The notes below the pieces were generated by a model that ran no database searches, was not told the origin of the DNA, and saw nothing but the letters and a program-made list of their open reading frames with translations. From Syntrophales bacterium (GTDB taxonomy: Bacteria > Desulfobacterota > Syntrophia > Syntrophales > PHBD01), in assembly GCA_963668175.1 (NCBI GenBank), contig OY764159.1:1184001-1248000 (forward strand): a DNA stretch of 64,000 nt, given 5' to 3'. Both the position numbers and the translations under genes were made by a program. Below, piece after piece: positions 23,415 to 35,118 of this stretch (position 1 is its first letter; every line of letters begins with the position of its first letter).

Positions 23415-24107
23415 CTACGGCGCGCTGCCGTTTATGCAATTGAGCATCTTTTCACTTTCGATAAAACGAAGGGTGGCTGTCCCTGCAGGGGATGTGCCGT
23501 TTCGGGATGCGATAAACGCCTTTAAATCTTCTATCGTGTCGATATCGCGCCAGCATGGAAGAATCGCAAGCCGCAGGCCTTTCGCCTTGATGATCCTGCA
23601 TGTGCTTTCGCAGACGCTGTCCGAGCCCCAGGGAATCTCCATGAAGGCATCCGGCAGAAATGCGGCGGCCTTGAAACCAATCAGGTAGTATCCGCCATCC
23701 GCGGCGGGGCCGATCACACAGTCGTTGGTTCCCAGTGCGGCGAATCCTGCCTCGACGATCGTCGCCGGCAGGTCGGGGAGGTCGCTGCCGATCAAAAGGA
23801 GCGAATCGTAGCCCTCCGAAAAGATCTTCCGGAAGGCATGGCTCATTCTTTCTCCCAGGTCGCTCCCCTCTTGGGGCTCGCAGGGACGGTCGTGGCCCAG
23901 CCAGGCCGCCACGCTCTCCTGTTGATCGGGCGGATAAAAGAAGAGCCTGACATCGAATGGTCCCCGGCCCATCGTCTCCAGGATATCCGCTACGAAGTGC
24001 CGATAGAGCATTCTTGCGTTCTCTTCCCCGATGGCCTTCGCCAGGCGGGATTTGACGGTTGCCGCACCGGGCGCCTTGACGAATATGATGAGTCCTTGCC
24101 GCTCCAT
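23415..24107 (-). CDS. TIGR04282/DUF2064 family transferase (arsenosugar biosynthesis-associated, CofC-like)
   Basis: IIFVKAP...VKSRLA, QEGSDLGERM, IGSDLP, GPAADGGYYLIG, DIDTIEDL. Confidence 0.88.
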   Translation of the reverse strand: MERQGLIIFVKAPGAATVKSRLAKAIGEENARMLYRHFVADILETMGRGPFDVRLFFYPPDQQESVAAWLGHDRPCEPQEGSDLGERMSHAFRKIFSEGYDSLLLIGSDLPDLPATIVEAGFAALGTNDCVIGPAADGGYYLIGFKAAAFLPDAFMEIPWGSDSVCESTCRIIKAKGLRLAILPCWRDIDTIEDLKAFIASRNGTSPAGTATLRFIESEKMLNCINGSAP

Positions 24108-24234
24108 GGAACCATTATAACGGGGATGGCCGCTCCGGGCAAGAAGAAGGCGCAATGGCCCCGTTCCCGGGCGACGACCGGGAATCCACGGCCGCCGTTT
24201 CCGGCCGATATGACCGTTTCGCCGCGTTCCCGGT

Positions 24235-25320
24235 CTATTTGAAGATGTTGTAGTCGAGGCCCCGTATCCGCGCCCTTTCGGCGAACCAGTCGTCTTCCGT
24301 CAGGGGCGGTTTGGTCAATTTGTCCGGCGCCTTGCGGACCAGGCGGATCGCGTCCGCCGGGCAGCGGCGCACGCAAAGGCCGCAGCCGATGCACTTTTCC
24401 TCCACGACACGGTATGCATCTCCGTCTTCCGCGACGGCGCCGACCTGGCAGCGTTCGTCGGCACAGAGGCCGCAGCCGATGCACGTATCGGCGTCGATGA
24501 CGGCATAGTGGTAGGAATTGATGACCACCGACGCCGGGATGCCGAGGTCGTTGATGGCGCTGAGGACTCCGCAGCAGCACTTGCAGCAGTTGCAGATATA
24601 GATGTGCCCCGCCTGGATATTGTACGTGAGATGGACCAGGCCGGCTTCTTCGGCCTTGTCGAGCATTGCGTAGGCCTCCTCCTTGGTGATGACCCGTCCC
24701 GTCGGCGATTTTTTGAACATCCCGGGTACTGGGGCGATGCCCAGGCAGACTTCCAGCGGTTTGTCGCAGGGATGGCCCATCAGGGACTTCTCTTTTTTAC
24801 AGATACATTCGTTCAGGAGAAAGGACCGGCCGGCTTCGATAATGGCCGAAACCTTCTCATACGACAGGCTTTCCTGGTGGCTGGGTATCACCTCGTCGAC
24901 GGCGATGGTCTGCATGAGCGGCGGCTTCTTCGAGAAAAATTCCCTGCCGTAAAGAGGCCAGTATTCCTCCATCAGTTCGGCGAATTCTTTGTCCATCCGG
25001 CCGAGCTGAAATTCGTAGATACCGAATATCCAGGGCATCATTTTAAAATACCGGGTTTTGTCCAGGCGGATCGAGAACAGCTGTCCCGCGACGACCATGT
25101 CGAAAAGCTTTGCCTCCAGGCCTTCCAGGGGGCGGCCCGTGCGCTCGGCGATCTGCTCGGCCGATTCAAACGTCATCTTCAGGTCGCAGAAAAGGTCTGC
25201 CTGTTCGGGGAGGAAGACTTTCTTCAAAAGCTTGATTTCCACGCCGCTTTCCGAGGCAGGGTAGCCGTTCGGCAAGGTATCCAGGACTTTGGCCAACCGC
25301 TGATACATGTCGTCGCTCAT
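24235..25320 (-). CDS. Fe-S protein with N-terminal helical/HTH-like region and C-terminal 2x[4Fe-4S] ferredoxin domain
   Basis: CICK, ICNCCKCCC, CIGCGLC...C, CIGCGLCVRRCP; start at MSDDMYQ. Confidence 0.85.
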   Translation of the reverse strand: MSDDMYQRLAKVLDTLPNGYPASESGVEIKLLKKVFLPEQADLFCDLKMTFESAEQIAERTGRPLEGLEAKLFDMVVAGQLFSIRLDKTRYFKMMPWIFGIYEFQLGRMDKEFAELMEEYWPLYGREFFSKKPPLMQTIAVDEVIPSHQESLSYEKVSAIIEAGRSFLLNECICKKEKSLMGHPCDKPLEVCLGIAPVPGMFKKSPTGRVITKEEAYAMLDKAEEAGLVHLTYNIQAGHIYICNCCKCCCGVLSAINDLGIPASVVINSYHYAVIDADTCIGCGLCADERCQVGAVAEDGDAYRVVEEKCIGCGLCVRRCPADAIRLVRKAPDKLTKPPLTEDDWFAERARIRGLDYNIFK

Positions 25321-25373
25321 GATCCGATCTCCGTTCGTTATTTTGGCATGTTCTCTTTGTTTGCGTCCTATCG

Positions 25374-25967
25374 TTACGGCTCTGTTCTTATCTTTTCCGC
25401 TTTCTTGCCGGCGATGACGGTCTTTCCCGTTTCCATGAGGAGTTTCGTGACTTCCTCTTCCGTCATCTCGGCGATCACGCCGTTGTTGCTCAGGACGGCA
25501 AGGCCGTGGGAGAATATCCACATCTTGTAGAGAATGTCCTTCTTCTCTTCGAGGGTGAACCCCGGCAGGACCGATTCGTCGCGGAGCCTCTCCATGACGG
25601 CTTCGACGACATAGCCGTGACGCCCGCCTGTCTCGTCCCCGGGCTCGTCTTCGCCGGATTCCTTGGAGTAGAGCATCCGGAAGAGGTTCTTTTCGATTTG
25701 GGCGAACAGGACGTAACCGATCCCCATGTCGAGAAATCGCCATCTCGATCTCTCTTTTGTCTGGTAGCGGATGAGCAGGTCGGAAGCCCTCCGGGCGATG
25801 GCGTCCTTGAGTTTCTGCATGCAGCTCAGGCCCGAGTAGATCGGCATCGTGGACGACCCCAGTTCCCGGGCGATCATCCGGGCCGTGCACCTTTCCCAGC
25901 CGTGCTTCCGGGTAACGGAAAAAGCCGCGTCCACGATATCTTCTTTGGTAAATCGTACTTCCGGCAT
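25374..25967 (-). CDS. TetR family transcriptional regulator
   Basis: N-terminal HTH IVDAAF...TARMIARELGSSTMPIYS. Confidence 0.9.
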   Translation of the reverse strand: MPEVRFTKEDIVDAAFSVTRKHGWERCTARMIARELGSSTMPIYSGLSCMQKLKDAIARRASDLLIRYQTKERSRWRFLDMGIGYVLFAQIEKNLFRMLYSKESGEDEPGDETGGRHGYVVEAVMERLRDESVLPGFTLEEKKDILYKMWIFSHGLAVLSNNGVIAEMTEEEVTKLLMETGKTVIAGKKAEKIRTEP

Positions 25968-26132: not shown

Positions 26133-26633
26133 ATGTCCATATTTACGGCGAAGCGTTTTGAATATGCGTGTTCCCTGCCCGTAGAGGCGCCTGCCGACGA
26201 GGTCTTTCCGCTTCTTTGTCCCGTGAGGGAGTACGAGTGGATCGACGGCTGGGATTGCCGGCTGGTCTATTCCCGGTCCGGTCTGGCGGAAATGAATGCC
26301 GTCTTCACGACGGATTTCTCCGGCGAGGGTCTCACGGTCTGGGTTACGTCCCATCACGATCCGGCGGCCCGCCGGGTTTCCTATATCCGGGTCACGCCGG
26401 GAATCAAGGTCCTGAGGATGGATTTGCAGGTGGAGGAAGTCCCGGAGGGGCATTCCCTGTGGCGGATAGCCTATACCATGACCGCCCTGGGGGAGGAGGG
26501 CAATGCTTTGATCGAGCATCTGTCGGCGACGAACGGCGGGGAACTCGCGGCCAGGGCCGGACTTCTGGGTCGCATGTTGAACCATTTCCTCAAGACGGGC
26601 AGGATGCTCAAAAAGGAGGAATGGCCCAAGTGA
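26133..26633 (+). CDS. SRPBCC/START-like ligand-binding fold protein
   Basis: APADEVFPLLCPVREYEWIDGW N-terminal pattern; AAGGAG RBS. Confidence 0.7.
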   Translation: MSIFTAKRFEYACSLPVEAPADEVFPLLCPVREYEWIDGWDCRLVYSRSGLAEMNAVFTTDFSGEGLTVWVTSHHDPAARRVSYIRVTPGIKVLRMDLQVEEVPEGHSLWRIAYTMTALGEEGNALIEHLSATNGGELAARAGLLGRMLNHFLKTGRMLKKEEWPK

Positions 26634-27178
26634 AGCCCTACCCCATGACAGTCGGCCAGTTGGCGAAGCAGGCGGGTCTGTCCCGAAGCACGCTTCTCTA
26701 TTACGATTCCATCGGTCTCCTGCGACCCACGGGACGGAGCCGCGCCAACTATCGGCGGTATACCGAGGAGGACGCCCGGCGTCTCGAAAAGATTCGTCTT
26801 TATCGGCAGATGGGTCTTTCCACGACGCTCGTCGCCGAAATTCTCGCCGCCCCCAAGAGCGGCGTCCGGGACATCCTGGAGAAAAGGCTTTGGGAACTGG
26901 GCAAGGAAATCGGTCGCCTGAGGGAACAGCAGGAGGTCATCATCCGGATACTGCAGGACAATTCCCTCCGGGGGCGGCTCTCGTTTCTCAGCAAGGACGA
27001 CTGGGTTGCCCTCTTTCGGTCCGCCGGCCTCGACGACGAGGGGATGGAGACGTGGCATCGGGAGTTCGAAAAGCTCTCCCCCCATTCTCATCAGGAGTTT
27101 CTGGAAGGGCTCGGCATCCCGGCCGCAGAGATTGACCTGATCCGGAAAGCGTCCCGGAAGGGGACTCCCGGGAAATGA
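26630..27178 (+). CDS. MerR family transcriptional regulator (Cys-free)
   Basis: TVGQLAKQAGLSRSTLLYYDSIGLL...NYRRY; GTGA overlap with upstream stop; C-term WHREFE...H.EFL..LG. Confidence 0.92.
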   Translation: MKPYPMTVGQLAKQAGLSRSTLLYYDSIGLLRPTGRSRANYRRYTEEDARRLEKIRLYRQMGLSTTLVAEILAAPKSGVRDILEKRLWELGKEIGRLREQQEVIIRILQDNSLRGRLSFLSKDDWVALFRSAGLDDEGMETWHREFEKLSPHSHQEFLEGLGIPAAEIDLIRKASRKGTPGK

Positions 27179-27197
27179 AGAAAAGGAGGTTCTGATT

Positions 27198-27956
27198 GTG
27201 AATAATCAACTGATGATCGGTTTGTGGCGCCTCATGATCCAGCTTCCCCCGTCCCTTCTGGAGGGCAGGATGGCCAAGGCCAAGGAGAAATTTGCCAGGG
27301 AACTGGCCTTCATGACCGGCGAACACCGGGCGGTCCATCATTATGTAGTCCGTCAGCTTCCCTATGCAACGTCCCCTCTCGCCCCGGAGGCGATCGCCGC
27401 CGCCCTGGGCATGGACCGGGAGAGGGTTGAAACCCTGCTGGACGACCTCGAGAGGCATATGACCTTTCTTTTCAGGAACGACCGGCGGGAGGTTGTCTGG
27501 GCCTATCCGGTTACGCTGGAAAAAACGCCCCACCATCTCACCTTCGGCACGGGTGAAACCGTTTATGCCGCCTGAGCGGCCGACGCGTTCGCGGCGCCCT
27601 TCGTGCAAGGGCGGTTGAGAAAAGAGTCCCTGTCCGTCACCGTTCGTTCGGAATGCGCCCATTGCGGCCGTCCCATGGAGATGGAAATCGACAGCGACCT
27701 TGCGTACCGCGTAAAAGATGACGACTGCCGGCCCGTCGTCTTTATGCCCGACGTCGATCTTTACAAGCTTAAGGATGCCAGCATCATCGACGCCTTCTGA
27801 AAGGAGAGCGTCTTCTTCTGGTCAGAAGAGCATGCCAAGGCTTACAGGAAATCCGTTCATAGGATTCGTGGCGTCTATTTCAGCGCCGCACAGCTGGTCC
27901 GGGCAACCCGCGTCGCCCAAAGCGCCCTTTTCGGCTTCGACGGTCCTGCGCCGTGA
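27198..27956 (+). CDS. MerB (organomercurial lyase)-like selenoprotein, 252 aa, predicted Sec126 and Sec201
   Basis: Single frame with UGA at 27573 (VYAA-U-AAD, cf. MerB YAWC96ALD99) and 27798 (IDAF-U-KESVFF, cf. MerB SFC159CHVHFF); each followed by a SECIS-like hairpin; AAGGAGG RBS; WAYP..TPH motif. Confidence 0.85.
27592..27617 (+). other. Candidate bacterial SECIS element for UGA 27573
   Basis: CGCCCTT-CGTGC-AAGGGCG; apical loop begins 26 nt after UGA with GU at loop positions 2-3. Confidence 0.65.
27808..27835 (+). other. Candidate bacterial SECIS element for UGA 27798
   Basis: TCTTCT-GGTC-AGAAGA; loop begins 19 nt after UGA; GGUC loop like the E. coli fdhF SECIS; bulged lower stem GCGT/ATGC. 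Confidence 0.75.
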
Positions 27957-28079
27957 AGCCTTTCGTCGGCAAAGCTGCGAAGGTTCTTCCCGCCGCTTTT
28001 TTGCCTTGTTCGCCCTGCGTTATTATAGTATGAAAGTTCCCTCGAAACGTCGGATGCGTTTTCAACAGGGAACGGTACG

Positions 28080-29255
28080 ATGAGAATCATTCTTTTTACC
28101 GGCAAAGGGGGAACCGGTAAGACCACCTGTGCTGCGGCCACTGCTATGAAGACGGCAGCGTCAGGTTTGCGCACCCTCATCATCTCCACGGACTCCGCCC
28201 ACAGCCTGGCCGATGCCCTCGACGTCAAATTGGGGCCCGAGCCGGCCGAGGCGGCGGAAAACCTCTACGCCCAGGAACTCGACATCTATTACTCCATGCG
28301 CAAGTACTGGGGGAACCTCAGCAATATGCTCCGCCAGGCCTTAAGCTGGCAGCGCATGGACCGGATGCTGGTGGAGGAAATGGCCGCCCTGCCGGGTATG
28401 GCGGAGGCCTCGGCCTTCCTGTGGGTCGACAAGTATTACCGGGAAGGGGAGTACGACGTCCTTATCGTCGACAGTGCGCCCACGGGCGAAACCCTGACCC
28501 TCCTCACGCTGCCCCAGGTCAGCCGATGGTGGACCTCCAAGCTTTTCCCCTACCCGAAGATGGCGACGAAGGCCTTCGGCGCCTTTGTGCATGCGACGAC
28601 CGGCATCCCCCTGGACGAAAGCTACCGGGAGCTGGACGACCTTTTCACGAAGCTGGAGAGTCTCTATGAGATTTTCAGCAACCCCCTGATCACCTCCGTC
28701 CGCGTCGTCACCAACCCGGAGAAAATGGCCGTCCAGGAGGCCAAACGGGCCTATACGTATCTGCTGCTTCACGGCTACAGCGTCGACGCCGTGATCGTCA
28801 ACCGAGTCCTGCCCGATGCATCCGCCGACTCTTTCTGGAAGGGTTATCTGCAATCCCAAAAGCATTACCTGGAGGATATCGGGACGTCTTTTTATCCCCT
28901 GCCTGTCTTCACGCTGCATCATACAGGCCGGGAGGTGTTCGGCATAGAGATGCTCGGCCGCCTCGGCGACGGGCTCTATGCGGGGCGAAATCCCGTCGAG
29001 GTCCTTCATGCGGAAAAATCTTTTGTACTGGAAGATGTGGGGGAAATCGTGAGGCTCAAATTGAGGCTGCCGTTCTTTGAGAACAGCGACTTCAGGATCG
29101 AGCAGTTCGGCGACGAGTTGGTCATCAACATCCGGAACAACCGGCGCAATCTCTTCCTGCCCAAATTCATGGGCCATTTCGTCATCCGGGACTATTATTA
29201 CGAAGATCCGAACCTCGTCGTTCTCTTTTCACGGATTACGCCTTTCGGATCATGA
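28080..29255 (+). CDS. ArsA/Get3 family ATPase with C-terminal HSP20-like domain
   Basis: GKGGTGKTT, STDSAHSLAD, DSAPTGET; C-term GDELVINIRNNRRNLFLP. Confidence 0.9.
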   Translation: MRIILFTGKGGTGKTTCAAATAMKTAASGLRTLIISTDSAHSLADALDVKLGPEPAEAAENLYAQELDIYYSMRKYWGNLSNMLRQALSWQRMDRMLVEEMAALPGMAEASAFLWVDKYYREGEYDVLIVDSAPTGETLTLLTLPQVSRWWTSKLFPYPKMATKAFGAFVHATTGIPLDESYRELDDLFTKLESLYEIFSNPLITSVRVVTNPEKMAVQEAKRAYTYLLLHGYSVDAVIVNRVLPDASADSFWKGYLQSQKHYLEDIGTSFYPLPVFTLHHTGREVFGIEMLGRLGDGLYAGRNPVEVLHAEKSFVLEDVGEIVRLKLRLPFFENSDFRIEQFGDELVINIRNNRRNLFLPKFMGHFVIRDYYYEDPNLVVLFSRITPFGS

Positions 29256-29396
29256 TTGCGATGTCGGACCGTTTACGCCGGGCCTCTTTTCGCGCATCCG
29301 AACACAGGCCATGTATTCCCTTGCCCGGACGGCTGTTTGAAGAGGGGGCGGATGTCCGCCCCCAGCGATTTTTTACTTAGCGGAATGTGTATTTGC

Positions 29397-29699
29397 CTAT
29401 TTCTTGTGACATTGCGTGCAGGTGTTGAACGCTTTGGTCCCGTTGTGGCAGGCAAAGCAGAACTTCCCCGAGGTGTGATCGGCCATGGTGATCTTGGCCT
29501 CTTTCTTCATTGTGAACAGTCCCGAATGGCAGTCGTTGCACGACAACCCTTTATCGGCATGGGTTTTCCCGTGAAAAACGACCTGCCCTTGTCCGCCCCC
29601 GGCGTAGGTGATATCCTTGCTGCCGTCTACAGCCATAACGTTTACGGCCATAAATGCAAAAACAATGATAATGGCTGCTGCACTAAAATACTTCATCAT
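29397..29699 (-). CDS. Periplasmic triheme cytochrome c (c7-type)
   Basis: Signal peptide; CNDCH, CFACH, CTQCH; VVFHGKTH. Confidence 0.9.
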   Translation of the reverse strand: MMKYFSAAAIIIVFAFMAVNVMAVDGSKDITYAGGGQGQVVFHGKTHADKGLSCNDCHSGLFTMKKEAKITMADHTSGKFCFACHNGTKAFNTCTQCHKK

Positions 29700-29764
29700 G
29701 GGTTTTTCTCCTTCCTTCGTACTCCTGCTTTTAAATTTTTTTACCGCTATGCATAGTCTTGCAA

Positions 29765-30631
29765 CTAATCGCCCGATTTCCATTGTCCGCCTTCCTTGAC
29801 GAAGGTGAACCAGGTATTGTCCCCGCACAGGGCCACCGCCCGGTCGTCCCGGACGACGACGCGCTTGAGGGATTTGAGGGTTTTTTCCAGGTCTTCGGCC
29901 CCCTCCTTGGCGAACGCCTTGACGCTCTCTTCCGTCAATTTTTCCATCATGACGGCGTTACGGCGATTCGCCTGTTCGCTGGATACGGCCTTGATCCCTT
30001 CCAGATCGCCCTTTTTCATGGCGGCGATTTTCTGCCGCAGGACCTTGATCTGCGGGCTTTCCTGGGCCTGTTTGCCTTTCACGTCCGCCGTAACCGGCAA
30101 CTCCTGGAAAAGCGGGGCACTGAATTTTACCATGTACGATAACTTCGGCAGTTCCTCGCTGCCTGACGCCCGATCCTCCGTATGTGCGACCTCTCCCGAG
30201 ATACGGGTCTTCGAAATCGTAAGTCCCTTCAGGGGCGGCTTTGCCGTATCGACGAGAGAAAGGGTCATCAGGGTCAAGCCTTCCTGAGGGGGTTTGGCAA
30301 GGAGCGTCACCAGCACTTTGCTGCGGTCTTTGGGGTCGAACTGGAGGAGCAGGCCCGTCACCCGGCCTTCCTTGGCCAGTTCGGCTACCGGCAGGAAGGC
30401 AATCCCTCGCAGTGACTCCTGCGGGATTTGCCGGTCGGCAAGGACGATACGGATCTCCCTGGGTCTATCCAGCAGGCCTTCGGCGTTATCGTGATAATGG
30501 GCGTAGGCCTCCGTTAACGCCACCTTCGTTTCGTTCATCGTCAGCACGCCCTGCGCCTTGCCGGGATCGATGGCATGGGCCGACGGGCAACAAAAGAATA
30601 TCAAAGAAGATATGACTATGGCTTTTTTCAC
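29765..30631 (-). CDS. Exported hypothetical protein
   Basis: AAGGAGGA RBS before GTG; signal peptide ending AHA; 288 aa. Confidence 0.75.
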   Translation of the reverse strand: MKKAIVISSLIFFCCPSAHAIDPGKAQGVLTMNETKVALTEAYAHYHDNAEGLLDRPREIRIVLADRQIPQESLRGIAFLPVAELAKEGRVTGLLLQFDPKDRSKVLVTLLAKPPQEGLTLMTLSLVDTAKPPLKGLTISKTRISGEVAHTEDRASGSEELPKLSYMVKFSAPLFQELPVTADVKGKQAQESPQIKVLRQKIAAMKKGDLEGIKAVSSEQANRRNAVMMEKLTEESVKAFAKEGAEDLEKTLKSLKRVVVRDDRAVALCGDNTWFTFVKEGGQWKSGD

Positions 30632-30794
30632 CGAAGTATCCTCCTTACCGGGAATCACCTCCGGCGGGCGCGCCGGGATATGCCCGACGGTCACTTCCTG
30701 CGACGCCTTGATCCTTATCCCAATTTACGAAGAATCACGGCCGGTTGTCAACGAGATTTTGCAGAGTCTCGCGTGCGGGGATTATTTTCGAATA

Positions 30795-30876
30795 ATACTA
30801 TATATGGATATATAATCGTTATCTTCTACTATATATTGTGTTTTTTCTTGACTTTTTCCATGAAAGTCCGTATACT
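30795..30876 (+). promoter_or_regulatory. Tandem NrdR-like boxes followed by a consensus sigma-70 promoter
   Basis: ATACTATATATGGATA (30795) and CTACTATATATTGTGT (30826), 31 bp apart; TTGACT-N17-TATACT at 30848-30876. Confidence 0.6.
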
Positions 30877-30882
30877 GACATC

Positions 30883-31006
30883 ACCCTGAAATAAGAGATA
30901 CTTATACGGCTTATTCTTGTGCCTGAAACAAGAGGCGGCTAAGTATCAACATATCTATGGACCAAGGCGGCCGGTTGCCTGACGATTGTTCCCGGCCGCC
31001 TTTTCT
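30883..31006 (+). ncRNA. Candidate structured small RNA or attenuator leader
   Basis: Lies between the promoter and a terminator (AAGGCGGCCGG/CCGGCCGCCTT-TTCT); stems GATACTTA/TAAGTATC and TCTTGT/ACAAGA; no RBS-led ORF. Confidence 0.45.
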
Positions 31007-32328: not shown

Positions 32329-32796
32329 ATGAACCCACAGGAAATGGAAGAAAAAGCGGAGGCCCTGTTCGGCGACCTTTACCATTGCAGCCAGGCCGTC
32401 CTGGCGGTCGGGCAGGAAAAGCTGAACGGCGGGGTCAGTGCTGAATTGATCAGGGCGATGGACGTCTTCGGCGGGGGGCTCGGCGGCCACGGCGAGACCT
32501 GCGGGGCGCTCGTCGGAGCCCTGGCGGTCATCGGACTTATGGATGGGCGCAGCGCCGGAGGTCAATATCCCGAGATGAAGATGTGGATAGATGCCCGCGA
32601 ACTGGTGAGACGTTTCCGCACGGAGATTGCCGGCGGCCATATCCTCTGCCGGGATATCGTCGCCGTGGACTGGACGGACCCGGATCAGGTCAGGGCATAC
32701 CGGGAAGGCCCGAAGCGGGAAATCTGTAGGAAGCTTACCGGCCATACCGCCAGGCTTGTCGGCGAGATCATCGAAAAGGCCCGGGCCTCAACGTAA
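32329..32796 (+). CDS. C_GCAxxG_C_C family putative redox protein
   Basis: HCSQAV, FGGGLG, TCGALVGA, LC, IC. Confidence 0.88.
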   Translation: MNPQEMEEKAEALFGDLYHCSQAVLAVGQEKLNGGVSAELIRAMDVFGGGLGGHGETCGALVGALAVIGLMDGRSAGGQYPEMKMWIDARELVRRFRTEIAGGHILCRDIVAVDWTDPDQVRAYREGPKREICRKLTGHTARLVGEIIEKARAST

Positions 32797-32867: not shown

Positions 32868-33596
32868 TTATCGGTTTGATTCTTTTCTTCTTACACCGTA
32901 CAGGGTCCGGCCGTGGCGGTAGTATCTCGACAGTTTTTCCGGCGACACACCAAGAAAATAGGACGCGATCAGAAACCAGTTGCGAAGAGTGGTGTAGGCA
33001 ATGCCTTCCGCCTCCCATCGCCGCGGCGATGTCGCGGCCGGTTCCGGTATGATGTAAATCCGCCTTCCCGCCTTCTTGAGGTTGCGCATGAGGGCGACGT
33101 CCTCCATGAGCGGAATCGGGGGGTAGCCGCCGATCCGTTCGAACGCCTCCTTCCGGATAAAGATGGCTTGGTCGCCGTAGGGAATTCTTGTCAGGCGGGA
33201 ACGGAGCGACGCGACGCGGGATATCAGCCGTAACGGAAGCCTCGTCGAGTCGATCCTGAGGTCGAAGGCGCCGCCGTCAATGTCGCCCGCCGTCATGACC
33301 TTATCGATGAGCGTCAGGGCCCGACGGGGCAGTCTCGTGTCGGCGTGGAGAAAGATCAGGTAGCGGCCCGCCGCCGCCGCGGCTCCCGCATTCATCTGGC
33401 AGGCCCGTCCCCGCGCCGACGACAGGCGTCGCGCCCCTTCGTCGGCGACGGCATGGATGGTATCGCCCGAGGAACTGCCGTCGACGACAATCACCTCCCC
33501 TTCTCCGGCCCTTTCCAGGGAGCGGATATGACCGATCAGAGGATTGATCGCATCGGCTTCGTTTAAGACGGGAACGATGAAGGAAAATGTTGTCAT
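32868..33596 (-). CDS. TIGR04283 family glycosyltransferase 2 (arsenosugar biosynthesis-associated)
   Basis: IVPVLNE, GRACQMNAGA, FLHADT, YGDQAIF, PLMEDV, TSPRRW. Confidence 0.88.
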   Translation of the reverse strand: MTTFSFIVPVLNEADAINPLIGHIRSLERAGEGEVIVVDGSSSGDTIHAVADEGARRLSSARGRACQMNAGAAAAAGRYLIFLHADTRLPRRALTLIDKVMTAGDIDGGAFDLRIDSTRLPLRLISRVASLRSRLTRIPYGDQAIFIRKEAFERIGGYPPIPLMEDVALMRNLKKAGRRIYIIPEPAATSPRRWEAEGIAYTTLRNWFLIASYFLGVSPEKLSRYYRHGRTLYGVRRKESNR

Positions 33597-33654: not shown

Positions 33655-35118
33655 CTAGGTTTCCGAGGGTGGATTGCATGCCCTTCCCTTGAGGTGGAAG
33701 AGGAAGCGGAGAATCCCCCGCGTCCGGTCGCTGAACAGCTTATCGGCGTAATACCGTCCGGCGGCCCGCTTCGATATTTCCGACAGGGTCGGATAGAGGT
33801 GTACCGCCTCGGCCATCCTGGACAGGCCGAGGCCGCCGCTTGCGGCGACGATCCATTCATGGATGATCTCCCCGGCCCGGTGCCCGGCAATCTGGCATCC
33901 CAGGAATTTTCCCTTCGGATCAATCAGGATCTTGATCTTGCCCGCCGTTTCCCCCTCCGCAAGGGCGCGGTCGTTTTCGCTGAAGAGTTCTTCCTCGATG
34001 CGATAGGGTATGCCTTCTTTTGCGGCCCGCTGTTCGTTGAGCCCGATACTGGCCACCTCGGGGTCGGTGTAGATACACCAGCCGACCTTCCTGTGGTCGA
34101 CGCGCCTGGGCAGCCGCAAAACGGCGTTTGTCAGGGCGATACCCGCCTGGTAGCCGGCGGCGTGGGTGAACGGCATAAGGCCGTTGACGTCCCCGCAGGC
34201 ATAGATATGCCGTATGTTTGTCCGCATGCGGTCGTCCACCGGGATATGGCGGGGGCCGACGGTTATCCCGGCTTTATCGAGATCGAGTCCGTCCAGATTC
34301 GGTTTCCGGCCGACCGCTACGAGGAGGGCATCGCCTGCAATGACCTTCATTCCGCCGCCGGCCGGGGCGGCCGTTACCTGCACCGCCGTTCCGTCCGCCG
34401 CTGCCTTGACGGCCCGCGTGCCTGTATGTATTTCGACGCCGTCTTCCCGGAGCCGGGCCTGGACGATGGCGGACATGTCGGCGTCCTCCTGCCCCATGAT
34501 CCGGTCGGCAAACTCCACGACGGAAACCGAAGACCCCAGCCGGGCGAAGGCCTGGGCCAGCTCCAGACCGACGGGCCCGCCGCCGAGAACGATCAGACGG
34601 GCGGGCAGGTCCCTGAGGGAAAATATCGTTTCGTTGGTGAGGCAGGGAACGGAGGCGAGGCCCTCCAGGGGCGGAACGACGGGGCTTGATCCCGTGGCGA
34701 TGATCCAGCTTCCGGCGCTGATTCTTTTGTTCTCAAAAATGACGGTGTGATCGTCGGCAAAACGGCATTGGCCGAAACGGACATCGACGCCTAATCCGCA
34801 GAAACGTTCGGGGGAATCCTGGCTCTGGATTGTCTCAATGACCGAACGGACACGGTCCATGACGGCCCCCAGGTCGACCGGCGGCCGTTGAATGTCCGGC
34901 AGGCCGAAGGCAGGGAAACGTTTGGCCAGGGCCCAGAGGCCGGCCGTGCGGATCAGCGTCTTGGATGGTACGCATCCGTGGTGGAGACAGTCCCCGCCCA
35001 GTTTGCCCGATTTTTCGATCAGGATTGTTTTTGCCCCGAAGCGGGCGCCGCCGGCCGCTGCCGTGAGGCCCGCCGCACCGCCGCCGATGATGCCCAGATC
35101 GTAATCGAAACCGGCCAT
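33655..35118 (-). CDS. Flavoprotein disulfide reductase (mercuric reductase-like/LpdA class)
   Basis: GGGAAG, GGDCLHHGCVPSK, GGGPVGLE, HLYPTLSE; lacks NmerA domain and C-terminal Cys-Cys. Confidence 0.88.
   Translation of the reverse strand: MAGFDYDLGIIGGGAAGLTAAAGGARFGAKTILIEKSGKLGGDCLHHGCVPSKTLIRTAGLWALAKRFPAFGLPDIQRPPVDLGAVMDRVRSVIETIQSQDSPERFCGLGVDVRFGQCRFADDHTVIFENKRISAGSWIIATGSSPVVPPLEGLASVPCLTNETIFSLRDLPARLIVLGGGPVGLELAQAFARLGSSVSVVEFADRIMGQEDADMSAIVQARLREDGVEIHTGTRAVKAAADGTAVQVTAAPAGGGMKVIAGDALLVAVGRKPNLDGLDLDKAGITVGPRHIPVDDRMRTNIRHIYACGDVNGLMPFTHAAGYQAGIALTNAVLRLPRRVDHRKVGWCIYTDPEVASIGLNEQRAAKEGIPYRIEEELFSENDRALAEGETAGKIKILIDPKGKFLGCQIAGHRAGEIIHEWIVAASGGLGLSRMAEAVHLYPTLSEISKRAAGRYYADKLFSDRTRGILRFLFHLKGRACNPPSET

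What the first reader, a model, noticed from the sequence alone, without database searches (positions are those of the whole stretch)
27198..27956. Hidden MerB-fold lyase with both catalytic cysteines recoded as selenocysteine
Seen: the ORF track splits this locus into 125-aa and 65-aa pieces plus an uncalled tail, but all are in one frame separated only by TGA at 27573 and 27798. Readthrough gives 252 aa: ...WAYPVTLEKTPHHLTFGTGETVYAA-U-AADAFAAPF...VRSECAHCGRPMEMEID...ASIIDAF-U-KESVFFWSEEHAKAY... Established: enterobacterial MerB uses Cys96/Asp99 (YAWCALD) and Cys159 (SFCCHVHFF) for C-Hg protonolysis. Both UGAs fall exactly on those two Cys, and the Asp three residues after the first is kept. 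Two independent nonsense mutations hitting only these codons is implausible. Inference: a di-selenol organometal(loid) lyase acting on methylmercury or another alkyl-metal(loid). Sec-containing MerB relatives (e.g. SaoL) have been described, so the family idea is not new. Whether this two-Sec subfamily and its operon are described needs checking.
Basis: partly seen in the sequence, partly recalled or inferred. Interest (0 to 1): 0.88.

Follow-up and report, generated by a model that had tools for sequence, protein, structure and literature searches.

The report
MerB-like enzyme with two selenocysteines
This is one intact gene for a relative of the methylmercury-splitting enzyme MerB in which both metal-gripping cysteines are written as selenocysteine, a design that is common in anaerobic sediment bacteria but is cut into fragments by gene callers and missing from the selenoprotein catalogues I could read.

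Summary
Window 27198-27956 (+) is one reading frame of 252 codons with TGA at codons 126 and 201.

It has the MerB fold: Pfam MerB scores 59.9 bits, and the 11 best structure matches are all MerB or MerB2. The two TGAs and Asp129 align to MerB Cys96, Cys159 and Asp99.

Both TGAs are kept in 80 of 80 related genome loci. In 80 metagenome loci, site 1 is TGA in all 80 and site 2 in all 79 that reach it. Each TGA is followed by a hairpin. In those hairpins synonymous codon choice is almost frozen, and the base changes that occur keep the pairs. The genome has selA, selB, selD and tRNA-Sec.

This is not SaoL, the one published MerB-like selenoprotein, which has a single Sec. A 2026 table of 119 selenoprotein families lists no two-Sec MerB form.

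In a 401-genome sample of the phylum, 65 of 87 MerB-fold matches carry two in-frame TGAs.

Enzyme activity and substrate are inferred, not shown; methylmercury is the leading guess.

The scan found this family before on other DNA.

The parts
27198..27956 (+). Whole gene: 252 codons plus the closing TGA. A MerB-fold protein with Sec at residues 126 and 201.
   Evidence: Pfam MerB 59.9 bits against GA 27. AF2 pLDDT 83.2 and pTM 0.82. The top 11 Foldseek hits are all MerB or MerB2.
27183..27189 (+). Shine-Dalgarno-like AAGGAGG, 8 nt before the GTG start.
   Evidence: Read directly. Homologues start at the aligned position, MKNKLM.G.WR.
27573..27575 (+). First in-frame TGA (Sec126), at the position of MerB Cys96.
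   Evidence: alignment (lyaaCavD against LYAWCALD). TGA in 79 of 79 rows of A2 and 80 of 80 metagenome loci.
27582..27584 (+). GAC, Asp129, at the position of MerB Asp99.
   Evidence: Invariant in A2 and in A1.
27595..27613 (+). SECIS-like hairpin 1. The stem is CGCCCUU / AAGGGCG and the loop is CGUGC. The stem starts 22 nt after the U of UGA1 and overlaps the codons for T/A133-P-F-V-Q-G-R139.
   Evidence: Codon choice is frozen at residues 134-138 (78-79 of 79 rows; 63 of 79 at Q137, where the alternative makes a G-U pair). 93.5% of cells are paired. Pair 24-40 has 6 GC-to-UA double changes and pair 28-36 has 16 UA-to-UG changes.
27654..27656 (+). TGC, Cys153, at the position of MerB Cys117 (the buried Cys of the SSHCA motif).
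   Evidence: alignment. At least 90% conserved.
27798..27800 (+). Second in-frame TGA (Sec201), at the position of MerB Cys159.
   Evidence: alignment (daFCkesvFF against QSFCCHVHFF). TGA in 79 of 79 rows of A2 and 79 of 79 metagenome loci that reach it.
27808..27835 (+). SECIS-like hairpin 2. The lower stem has 4 pairs and the upper stem 7 pairs (UUCUUCU / AGAAGAR), with loop GGUC. It overlaps the codons for S-V-F-F-W-S-E-E-H-A.
   Evidence: Codon choice is frozen at F206, F207 and E210 (79 of 79). 98.7% of cells are paired. Pair 22-27 is UA in 64 rows, CG in 12 and UG in 2: the Trp208-to-Arg change (TGG to CGG) travels with TCA to TCG.
27954..27956 (+). True stop codon (TGA).
   Evidence: Homology ends here. 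In relatives the stop is TGA, TAG or TAA at varying places. No conserved hairpin follows it.
26621..27178 (+). MerR-family regulator, 185 aa from ATG 26621, ending 19 nt before the lyase gene. It has no cysteine.
   Evidence: Pfam MerR_1 56 bits. Sequence. The same kind of gene lies just upstream in 16 of 80 loci, and a MarR-like gene in 22 of 80.
26133..26633 (+). Context: a small ORF with a weak SRPBCC / polyketide-cyclase likeness. It overlaps the regulator's start by 13 nt.
   Evidence: Pfam PF10604 17.9 bits, below GA 27.4. A 35%-identical copy lies directly after the lyase gene in one related genome (L039 = L196).
28080..29255 (+). Context: an ArsA/Get3-type ATPase with an HSP20-like C-terminal domain, 123 nt downstream.
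   Evidence: Pfam ArsA_ATPase 276.6 bits. Found near the lyase gene in only 1 of 80 loci. That locus and the copy in G002 (72% identity, upstream of the regulator) are from the same genome.

Best explanation
A single, intact selenoprotein gene. While translating it, the ribosome reads UGA at codons 126 and 201 as selenocysteine. Each UGA is served by its own hairpin in the coding sequence just downstream, through SelB and tRNA-Sec. The product is a 252-residue MerB-fold protein: an N-terminal winged-helix part and a C-terminal catalytic core. Its active site is Sec126 / Asp129 / Sec201 in place of MerB's Cys96 / Asp99 / Cys159. By analogy with MerB, I infer the following mechanism. An organometal cation R-M+ binds one selenolate and then the second. 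Asp129 passes a proton to the carbon. The hydrocarbon R-H leaves, and the metal stays held between the two selenolates until cellular thiols or sulfide take it. The most likely natural substrates are organomercurials such as methylmercury. Expression is probably controlled by the regulator encoded directly upstream. My confidence by part: two-Sec MerB-fold selenoprotein about 0.93; catalytic carbon-metal(loid) lyase about 0.65; mercury as the natural metal about 0.4-0.45.
For: Shown by computation, in five groups.
(1) One frame with two TGAs.
(2) MerB family and fold. Pfam gives 59.9 bits. Foldseek's top 11 hits are all MerB or MerB2, with E 6.5e-12 and TM 0.73-0.77 by target length (0.57 for the NMR model at rank 11); the next hit has E 0.027. 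The profile alignment puts U126 on Cys96, D129 on Asp99, C153 on Cys117 and U201 on Cys159.
(3) Conservation of both TGAs. They are kept in 80 of 80 genome loci. In 80 metagenome loci, site 1 is kept in all 80 and site 2 in all 79 that reach it. All 26 full-length hits in a 401-genome phylum sample carry at least two TGAs, down to 40% identity; one further partial hit has one.
(4) RNA-level selection. At conserved residues, codon entropy is near its maximum across the gene, except at residues 134-138 and 206-211, where it falls to about 0. The base changes that do occur keep the pairs, including GC to UA at site 1 and UA to CG at site 2.
(5) Cys stands at the same sites in some relatives. Eight database proteins have C at site 1 and end just before site 2, and two have C at site 2. 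Canonical MerB has Cys at both.
The full Sec machinery is in the genome: SelA, SelB, tRNA-SeC with anticodon TCA, and SelD, which itself carries one in-frame TGA. TGA is also an ordinary stop here, closing 17 of 39 long ORFs in the window.
For the mercury reading: the homology itself, and the invariant Asp. The genome encodes HgcA at 451 bits against a cut-off of 275. A review passage states that selone mimics of MerB cleave Hg-C faster than their sulphur analogues (PMC11639659, passage read).
Against: No experiment supports activity, selenium content or expression; no RNA run was listed.
Hairpin folding energies are no better than shuffled sequence (z -0.7 and -1.4 for the cores), and no Rfam SECIS family matched. 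The SECIS case therefore rests on conservation and covariation alone. Those hairpins overlap strongly conserved peptide motifs, which leaves few informative columns: one pair with double changes per hairpin.
Against mercury: no mer-operon context. No MerA reaches its cut-off in the genome (best 386.6 bits against 454). The adjacent MerR-type regulator has no cysteine at all, and the MarR-type one in other loci has almost none, so neither looks like a thiolate Hg(II) sensor.
The link to HgcA is weak. By my hand cross-tabulation, 26 of 54 genomes with a two-TGA MerB-fold gene have HgcA over its cut-off, against 93 of 347 others. Related genomes are not independent.
A di-selenolate site should hold Hg(II) very tightly, and no partner to remove it is evident.
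Confidence: 0.6

Rival explanations
1. Same selenoprotein and same chemistry, but the natural substrate is an organometal(loid) other than mercury, for example organoarsenic, organotin, organolead or an organoselenium/tellurium compound. It would work in anoxic settings where the known oxygen-dependent C-As lyase cannot.
For: There is no mer context and no MerA over cut-off. The regulators lack Cys. In this window the gene sits 123 nt from an ArsA-type ATPase. It also lies between members of the two 'arsenosugar biosynthesis glycosyltransferase' families, TIGR04282 and TIGR04283, both over their cut-offs. The ArsA-type and SRPBCC-like neighbours recur, in a different order, in one related genome. 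The SaoL authors likewise caution that a Sec at the metal site may change the substrate range (bioRxiv 10.1101/2022.07.06.499078, passages read).
Against: The arsenic-flavoured neighbours are not conserved: ArsA in 1 of 80 loci, TIGR04283 in 2 of 80, TIGR04282 in 1 of 80. The genome's ArsS homologue lies about 680 kb away. All characterised MerB-fold enzymes act on C-Hg bonds (established knowledge). That the known C-As lyase needs oxygen is recalled, not checked here.
Confidence: 0.2
2. A non-catalytic metal-binding protein. The Sec/Asp/Sec site would bind a soft metal ion or an organometal tightly, for sequestration, hand-over or sensing. The N-terminal winged helix might then bind DNA or a partner.
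For: Two selenolates would bind Hg(II) and other soft metals very tightly, and no release partner is seen. Foldseek matches the N-terminal roughly 90 residues weakly to MarR/MepR regulators (E 0.06-0.2). Earlier unchecked notes of this scan report the same two-Sec domain fused to an adenylate cyclase in another genome, which would suit a sensor domain. The genomic context is variable, as for a stand-alone binding protein.
Against: The catalytic Asp is invariant in the 79-row alignment A2 and the 30-row A1. Canonical MerB has the same winged-helix-like N-terminal part and is an enzyme (one search aligns it from residue 52). A separate regulator gene sits upstream in 38 of the 73 loci that have at least 700 nt of upstream sequence. 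I did not check the cyclase fusion.
Confidence: 0.15
3. Not a selenoprotein: either a pseudogene with two nonsense mutations or three separate small genes, or TGA is read as another amino acid under a deviant genetic code.
For: Gene callers split the locus. 27 of 29 full-length database homologues show W at both sites, as if called under a TGA=Trp table. Hairpin energies are unremarkable.
Against: Both TGAs are kept in every complete homologue examined, with protein conservation running across them. A single MerB fold spans all three pieces. TGA is the commonest ordinary stop in the window, closing 17 of 39 long ORFs, and it ends this very gene. A complete Sec machinery is present. No fetched locus has TGG at either site.
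Confidence: 0.02

Closest known systems
SaoL, the 'selenocysteine-assisted organometallic lyase' (NCBIfam NF040728; Haft & Gwadz, bioRxiv 10.1101/2022.07.06.499078, passages read)
   Same: A MerB-fold protein of anaerobes. It carries a UGA-encoded Sec at the position of MerB Cys159 and keeps the Asp. Databases truncate it at the UGA. Its substrate is unknown, presumed to be an organometal.
   Different: SaoL has one Sec, in a Cys-Sec dipeptide, and keeps Cys at the Cys96 position. It marks a conserved nine-gene SAO locus with transporters. Here both positions are Sec (A-A-U-A-x-D and F-U-K/R) with no neighbouring Cys. The SaoL model scores 44.7 bits against a cut-off of 140. The NCBIfam scans of the window's neighbours returned no Sao family. 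The only recurrent neighbour is a regulator.
MerB, organomercurial lyase of mer operons (Pfam PF03243; PDB 3f0o, 3f0p, 1s6l; MerB2 5c17)
   Same: The fold matches (Foldseek E 6.5e-12). The order of the N-terminal winged-helix-like part and the catalytic core is the same. The active-site positions and the buried Cys117 equivalent are in register. The F-F-x-S...H motif after the second site is shared.
   Different: The two catalytic Cys are Sec. About 19% identity. NCBIfam MerB models score 56-57 bits against cut-offs of 193-200. There is no Cys160 equivalent. An extra 35-residue N-terminal extension is modelled with low confidence. There is no merA, merT or merP context, and no MerA over cut-off in the genome.
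A second two-TGA MerB-fold group seen here (motifs GQ-U-AFE-S and A-U-STMNFFRSEEH)
   Same: MerB Pfam matches of 40-65 bits with TGA at both catalytic positions in 8 of 8 loci fetched. It occurs in the same phylum, sometimes in the same genome and even on the same contig (G412 C13).
   Different: Glu stands in place of Asp three residues after the first Sec. The two Sec are 65 residues apart, not 75. It forms a separate, well supported clade (96/97 against 97/97). It was not found in the window's own genome.

Membership tests
MerB family (Pfam PF03243) | Match to the Pfam MerB model above its gathering score | tested here: met
   59.9 bits against 27, residues 106-236. 43.4 bits when the genome is read with stops in place.
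MerB family (Pfam PF03243) | MerB three-dimensional fold | tested here: met
   AF2 model with pLDDT 83.2. Foldseek ranks 1-11 are all MerB or MerB2, with TM by target 0.73-0.77 for ranks 1-10 and 0.57 for the NMR model at rank 11.
Organomercurial lyase MerB, equivalog level (NCBIfam NF033555, NF009710) | Score above NCBI's curated cut-off | tested here: not met
   56.4 against 200 and 57.4 against 193.
Organomercurial lyase MerB, equivalog level (NCBIfam NF033555, NF009710) | Catalytic Cys96, Asp99 and Cys159 | tested here: not met
   Asp is kept, but both Cys positions are TGA. Sec is chemically analogous to Cys but is not Cys.
Organomercurial lyase MerB, equivalog level (NCBIfam NF033555, NF009710) | mer-operon context (merA, Cys-type merR, merT/P) | tested here: not met
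   No MerA over cut-off in the genome. The upstream MerR-type protein has no Cys. The NCBIfam and Pfam scans of the neighbours returned no MerT or MerP match.
Organomercurial lyase MerB, equivalog level (NCBIfam NF033555, NF009710) | Cleaves Hg-C bonds | not testable with these tools
   Needs an enzyme assay.
SaoL (NCBIfam NF040728) | Score above the curated cut-off | tested here: not met
   44.7 bits against 140, and only residues 64-178 matched.
SaoL (NCBIfam NF040728) | Single Sec in a Cys-Sec dipeptide at the Cys159 site, with Cys at the Cys96 site | tested here: not met
   Sec at both sites. The residue before Sec201 is Phe.
SaoL (NCBIfam NF040728) | Lies in the nine-gene SAO neighbourhood | tested here: not met
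   No Sao family among the NCBIfam hits of the neighbours scanned. The recurrent neighbours in 80 loci are regulators, a thioesterase and others. The Sao models were not searched genome-wide.
Bacterial selenoprotein (general criteria) | In-frame UGA conserved among homologues, with coding conservation downstream | tested here: met
Bacterial selenoprotein (general criteria) | SECIS hairpin shortly after the UGA | tested here: met
   Conserved hairpins after both UGAs, with frozen synonymous sites and pair-keeping changes. Caveats: energy z-scores are unremarkable and there was no Rfam match.
Bacterial selenoprotein (general criteria) | Homologues with Cys at the Sec position | tested here: met
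   Cys at site 1 in P0012, P0034, P0040, P0042, P0045, P0047, P0050 and P0054. Cys at site 2 in P0032 and P0046. MerB has Cys at both. The DNA of these variants was not seen.
Bacterial selenoprotein (general criteria) | selA, selB, selC and selD in the genome | tested here: met
Bacterial selenoprotein (general criteria) | Selenium shown in the protein | not testable with these tools
   Needs 75Se labelling or mass spectrometry.

The most novel reading that the evidence does not exclude
Two-selenocysteine MerB-fold enzymes are the long-sought mer-independent methylmercury demethylases of anoxic sediments. On this reading they are stand-alone, selenium-dependent C-Hg lyases carried by many mercury-methylating lineages, this genome (which has HgcA) among them. 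They would be the commonest form of MerB-fold gene in this phylum and invisible to merB surveys, because gene callers cut them at the UGAs. Net methylmercury production in such habitats would then depend on selenium supply.
Probability: 0.25. Interest if true: 0.9.

Novelty: new variant of a known kind. Interest (0 to 1): 0.7.

Why it matters
MerB is the only enzyme known to split the carbon-mercury bond of methylmercury. Surveys use merB to judge where the neurotoxin can be degraded.

A critical review states that demethylation pathways in anoxic settings remain unresolved and that reliable molecular probes are lacking (PMC10114901, passages read). A large mer-gene survey treats Cys96, Asp99 and Cys159 as strictly conserved (PMC8261052, passages read). 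Genes whose two Cys are UGA are cut short by gene callers, so such surveys have probably missed them (my inference).

In a 401-genome sample of this phylum, 65 of 87 MerB-fold matches carry two in-frame TGAs. The hidden form is therefore the majority there.

If these proteins are active lyases, three things follow:
- They give a concrete, testable candidate for anaerobic demethylation.
- They link mercury cycling, or other organometal cycling, to selenium availability.
- They offer a natural test of what selenium does better than sulphur at a metal-carbon cleaving site.

They also show a gap in annotation. No NCBIfam model names this family, and the NCBI examples seen are unnamed or 'hypothetical' fragments.

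Tried and rejected
- Rfam scan of 27150-28000 at E up to 10: no SECIS family, only chance hits.
- Single-sequence folding: the hairpins fold no better than shuffles, so I do not use energy as evidence.
- Expression: no RNA holder was listed for this stretch. The one raw-read run laid (X13) gave no reads.
- Fused or longer forms: a search of proteins of 444-2000 aa found none. This is weak evidence, because UGA truncation would hide them.
- Checking that W in the JGI proteins is TGA: none of the fetched loci encodes those exact proteins; only P0055 and P0058 matched, and they have no such W. 'W = TGA' therefore stays an inference.
- DNA of the Cys-bearing variants: the scan with P0034 returned relatives that have TGA at both sites (L110-L112). 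The scan with P0032 found nothing.
- Conserved operon: ArsA, the Fe-S protein, the TIGR04282 and TIGR04283 proteins, the AKR and others recur in 0-3 of 80 loci. I rejected them as family-wide partners.
- HgcA co-occurrence: only a roughly two-fold enrichment, among non-independent genomes. It does not support a functional link.
- Papers not held: Haft & Tolstoy 2025 (PMC12013261) and the journal version of Haft & Gwadz (PMC9879109). I saw the former's families only through the 2026 review's table.
- Pseudogene and alternative-code readings were rejected (see the rival explanations).
Full report
**The observation.** Window 27198-27956 (+) reads as one frame from GTG 27198, which lies 8 nt after AAGGAGG. 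The frame runs to TGA 27954-27956. In-frame TGAs stand at 27573-27575 (codon 126) and 27798-27800 (codon 201).

**Family and fold.** Read through with Cys standing in for Sec, the protein matches Pfam MerB at 59.9 bits (gathering score 27) over residues 106-236.
- It falls far short of NCBI's cut-offs for true MerB: 57.4 against 193 and 56.4 against 200. The same holds for SaoL, at 44.7 against 140.
- An AlphaFold2 model was built on 79 aligned family members. It has mean pLDDT 83.2 and pTM 0.82, with only residues 1-17 and 250-252 poorly defined.
- Foldseek against the PDB gives MerB or MerB2 structures at ranks 1-11, with E 6.5e-12 to 4e-07. TM by target length is 0.73-0.77 for ranks 1-10 and 0.57 for the NMR model at rank 11. 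The next hit has E 0.027.
- A profile of the family aligned to E. coli MerB puts Sec126 on Cys96 and Asp129 on Asp99 (YAWCALD). It puts Cys153 on Cys117, and Sec201 on Cys159, the first Cys of SFCC. I confirmed the numbering by counting along the printed alignment.

**Are the TGAs real and conserved?**
- In 61 related genomes, own genome included, 8 had a match. All 7 full-length ones have two in-frame TGAs; the eighth is a partial hit with one.
- A scan of one genome per species found 454 stretches encoding a relative. Of the best 80 kept, 66 carry the FFWSE motif and all 66 have TGA at both sites. The other 14 have FFRSE, and I read TGA at both sites in all 14.
In the best 80, TGA stands at site 1 in 80 of 80 and at site 2 in 79 of 79; L188 ends before site 2.
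- In an evenly drawn sample of 401 genomes of the phylum, 26 had a hit at E <= 1e-10. Every full-length hit had two TGAs (three where the closing stop was counted), down to 40% identity.
- Invariant residues lie on both sides of each TGA: A125, A127, D129, P134-G138, F206, F207, S209, E210 and H212.
- Contigs of two public runs from one sample cover both TGAs with no differences. That sample may be the source of this genome, so this only argues against an assembly error.

**Recoding signals.** Each TGA is followed by a conserved hairpin.

The strongest evidence is codon choice. I took residues conserved in at least 90% of 79 sequences and measured the entropy of their codons.
- Across most of the gene the entropy is near its maximum: Pro 1.5-1.8 bits, Gly 1.6-2.0 bits, Phe 0.9-1.0 bits.
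- At residues 134-138 it collapses. The codons CCC, TTC, GTG, CAA and GGG are used in 78, 79, 79, 63 and 79 of 79 rows.
- At residues 206-211 it collapses again. TTC, TTC and GAA (E210) are each used in 79 of 79 rows.

Pair counts agree.
- Hairpin 1 has 7 pairs and loop CGUGC, and its stem starts 22 nt after the U of UGA1. Of its cells, 93.5% are paired. Five pairs are never broken, there are 16 UA-to-UG changes, and there are 6 GC-to-UA double changes at its base.
- Hairpin 2 has 4 + 7 pairs and loop GGUC, and is 98.7% paired. Its loop-closing pair is UA in 64 rows, CG in 12 and UG in 2. The amino-acid change Trp208 to Arg (TGG to CGG) travels with the silent change TCA to TCG.

In the laid runs, contigs of other organisms match the window only at 27564-27623 and 27800-27841, the two post-UGA segments.

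Against this evidence:
- The folding energies of the window's hairpins are no better than shuffles (z -0.7 and -1.4).
- No Rfam SECIS model matches.
- Each hairpin offers only one pair with double changes.
- The shuffle control of the pair-counting tool is known to be lenient for related sequences.

That the GGUC loop resembles the E. coli fdhF SECIS loop is recalled, not tested.

**Machinery and code.** The genome, a single 4.57-Mb contig, has the following:
- SelA, at 514.6 bits.
- SelB, by its wing domain in a 639-aa frame.
- tRNA-SeC with anticodon TCA.
- SelD, which itself has one in-frame TGA.

The second 'tRNA-Sec' hit is a pair of tRNA-Ser genes. TGA closes 17 of 39 long ORFs in the window, and it closes this gene. 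The code is therefore standard.

**Cys/Sec interchange.** Among database proteins, eight have Cys at site 1 and end exactly before site 2: P0012, P0034, P0040, P0042, P0045, P0047, P0050 and P0054. Two have Ser at site 1 and Cys at site 2: P0032 and P0046. Of 29 full-length homologues, 27 show W at both sites. These are most simply gene calls under a TGA=Trp table. I could not confirm that on their own DNA, and I did not see DNA of the Cys variants.

**Surroundings.** The gene is preceded by a MerR-family regulator (26621-27178, 185 aa) that contains no cysteine.
- Across the 80 genome loci, the only recurrent neighbour is a regulator just upstream on the same strand. It is MarR-like in 22 loci and MerR-like in 16. 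That makes 38 of the 73 loci with at least 700 nt of upstream sequence.
- A 4HBT thioesterase is adjacent in 10 loci.
- Both regulator types lack a conserved Cys cluster. The MerR type has two invariant His in a WH..EFE...HQEFLE motif.
- The ArsA-type ATPase 123 nt downstream recurs in 1 of 80 loci. That locus belongs to one genome of the same family. There the SRPBCC-like ORF, the regulator, the lyase gene and the ATPase occur together in a different order.
- The genome encodes HgcA at 451 bits against a cut-off of 275. It has no MerA above cut-off and no second MerB-fold gene.

**Wider picture.** I searched the Pfam MerB model, reading through stops, in the same 401-genome sample. It gave 87 matches in 66 genomes. 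By my hand count of the table, 65 matches have two in-frame TGAs, 10 have one and 12 have none.

Many of the two-TGA matches are not close relatives of this gene. I fetched 8 of them, and all 8 have TGA at both catalytic positions. They carry different motifs (GQ-U-AFE-S and A-U-STMNFFRSEEH), with Glu in place of Asp and a 65-residue spacing.

I built a tree from 24 rows: 14 of this family (every third of the first 40 rows of A2), 7 of the Glu group, and 3 single-Sec or Cys forms. L212 and L221 were left out. Each two-Sec group forms its own well supported clade (97/97 and 96/97). The deep branches are long and their order is unsure. For the remaining two-TGA matches I did not check where the TGAs lie.

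Cross-tabulating by hand gives the HgcA comparison. HgcA over cut-off is present in 26 of 54 genomes with a two-TGA MerB-fold gene. It is present in 93 of 347 without one. For this gene's own family the figures are 14 of 26 against 105 of 375. Two further genomes, G350 and G229, have HgcA split or cut at contig ends. This enrichment is modest and the genomes are related, so I draw no functional link from it.

**What is known.**
- The Haft & Gwadz preprint (passages read) describes SaoL. It is a MerB-like selenoprotein with one Sec in a CU dipeptide at the Cys159 site and Cys at the Cys96 site, and it lies in a nine-gene SAO locus. None of the passages returned by my term searches mentions a two-Sec form.
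- A 2026 review tabulates 119 prokaryotic selenoprotein families. I read its Table 1 in full. Its only MerB-like row is SaoL, with one Sec. 'PF03243' does not occur in its text.
- The BSepDB paper does not contain 'MerB', 'SaoL' or 'lyase'.
- Full-text searches for 'selenoprotein' plus 'organomercurial lyase', and for merB, selenocysteine, demethylation and anaerobic, gave no description of it.
- I could not read Haft & Tolstoy 2025 or any supplementary tables, and these could bear on the novelty claim.
- Earlier agents of this scan met the same family in at least 25 other genomes and reached the same reading. That is not independent evidence.

**Mechanism.**
- Shown: the gene structure, the conservation, the RNA constraint, the machinery, the fold and the active-site register.
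- Inferred: SelB-dependent insertion of Sec at both UGAs, and a MerB-type protonolysis in which two selenolates bind the metal and Asp129 delivers the proton.
- Open: the metal. Mercury is favoured by homology and by chemistry. A review passage says selone mimics of MerB cleave Hg-C faster than thione ones. Mercury is weakened by the lack of mer context and by the Cys-free regulators.

**Verdict.** This is a real, widespread two-selenocysteine MerB-fold family, distinct from SaoL and apparently uncatalogued. It is a new variant of a known kind. Interest is 0.7.

Noticed in passing
Loci L211-L218 (genomes G311, G254, G225, G104, G141, G412, G275, G015): A second MerB-fold group with TGA at both catalytic positions. 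It has Glu instead of Asp after the first TGA (GQ-U-AFE-S ... A-U-STMNFFRSEEH) and a 65-residue spacing. It often sits in the same genomes as the window's family. In G412 the two lie 17 kb apart on one contig.
   Followed up: partly
Own genome C1:2038640-2039629 (L099), outside the window: A full-length HgcA (mercury methylation corrinoid protein) at 451 bits against a cut-off of 275, with no in-frame stop. The organism is a likely mercury methylator. No MerA reaches its cut-off.
   Followed up: partly
window 23415-24155 (-) and 32868-33596 (-): Members of the paired TIGR04282 and TIGR04283 'arsenosugar biosynthesis glycosyltransferase' families, both over their cut-offs, flank the region about 9 kb apart. 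The ArsS radical-SAM homologue of the genome lies far away, at C1:1892545-1893444.
   Followed up: partly
window 32329-32796 (+): A C-GCAxxG-C-C family protein (TIGR01909, 56.4 bits against 47.4). This family includes selenoproteins. This copy reads without an in-frame stop.
   Followed up: no
window 33655-35118 (-): A FAD-dependent pyridine nucleotide-disulfide oxidoreductase that scores 337.8 bits on the MerA model (cut-off 454) and 440 bits on PRK06370. It lies about 6 kb from the lyase gene and is not a conserved neighbour (0 of 80 loci).
   Followed up: partly
window 26133-26633, 26621-27178, 27198-27956 and 28080-29255, compared with L196 (G002): The same four genes (SRPBCC-like ORF, MerR-type regulator, two-Sec lyase, ArsA-type ATPase with HSP20-like tail) lie together in one related genome, in a different order. 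This may be a small functional cluster, but it was seen in only two genomes of one family.
   Followed up: partly
Own genome C1:4129230-4130159 (L208): SelD itself carries one in-frame TGA, so the selenophosphate synthetase of this organism is a selenoprotein.
   Followed up: no
window 24235-25890 (-): A 551-aa protein whose only recognised part is a C-terminal 2x[4Fe-4S] ferredoxin domain. The first roughly 420 residues match no Pfam or NCBIfam family. Weak relatives lie near the lyase gene in 3 of 80 loci and in two of the extended contexts.
   Followed up: no
window 29256-30900 (+): Several ORFs directly after the ArsA-type ATPase (29256-29756, 29759-30142, 30241-30615, 30575-30889) have no Pfam or NCBIfam match.
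   Followed up: no
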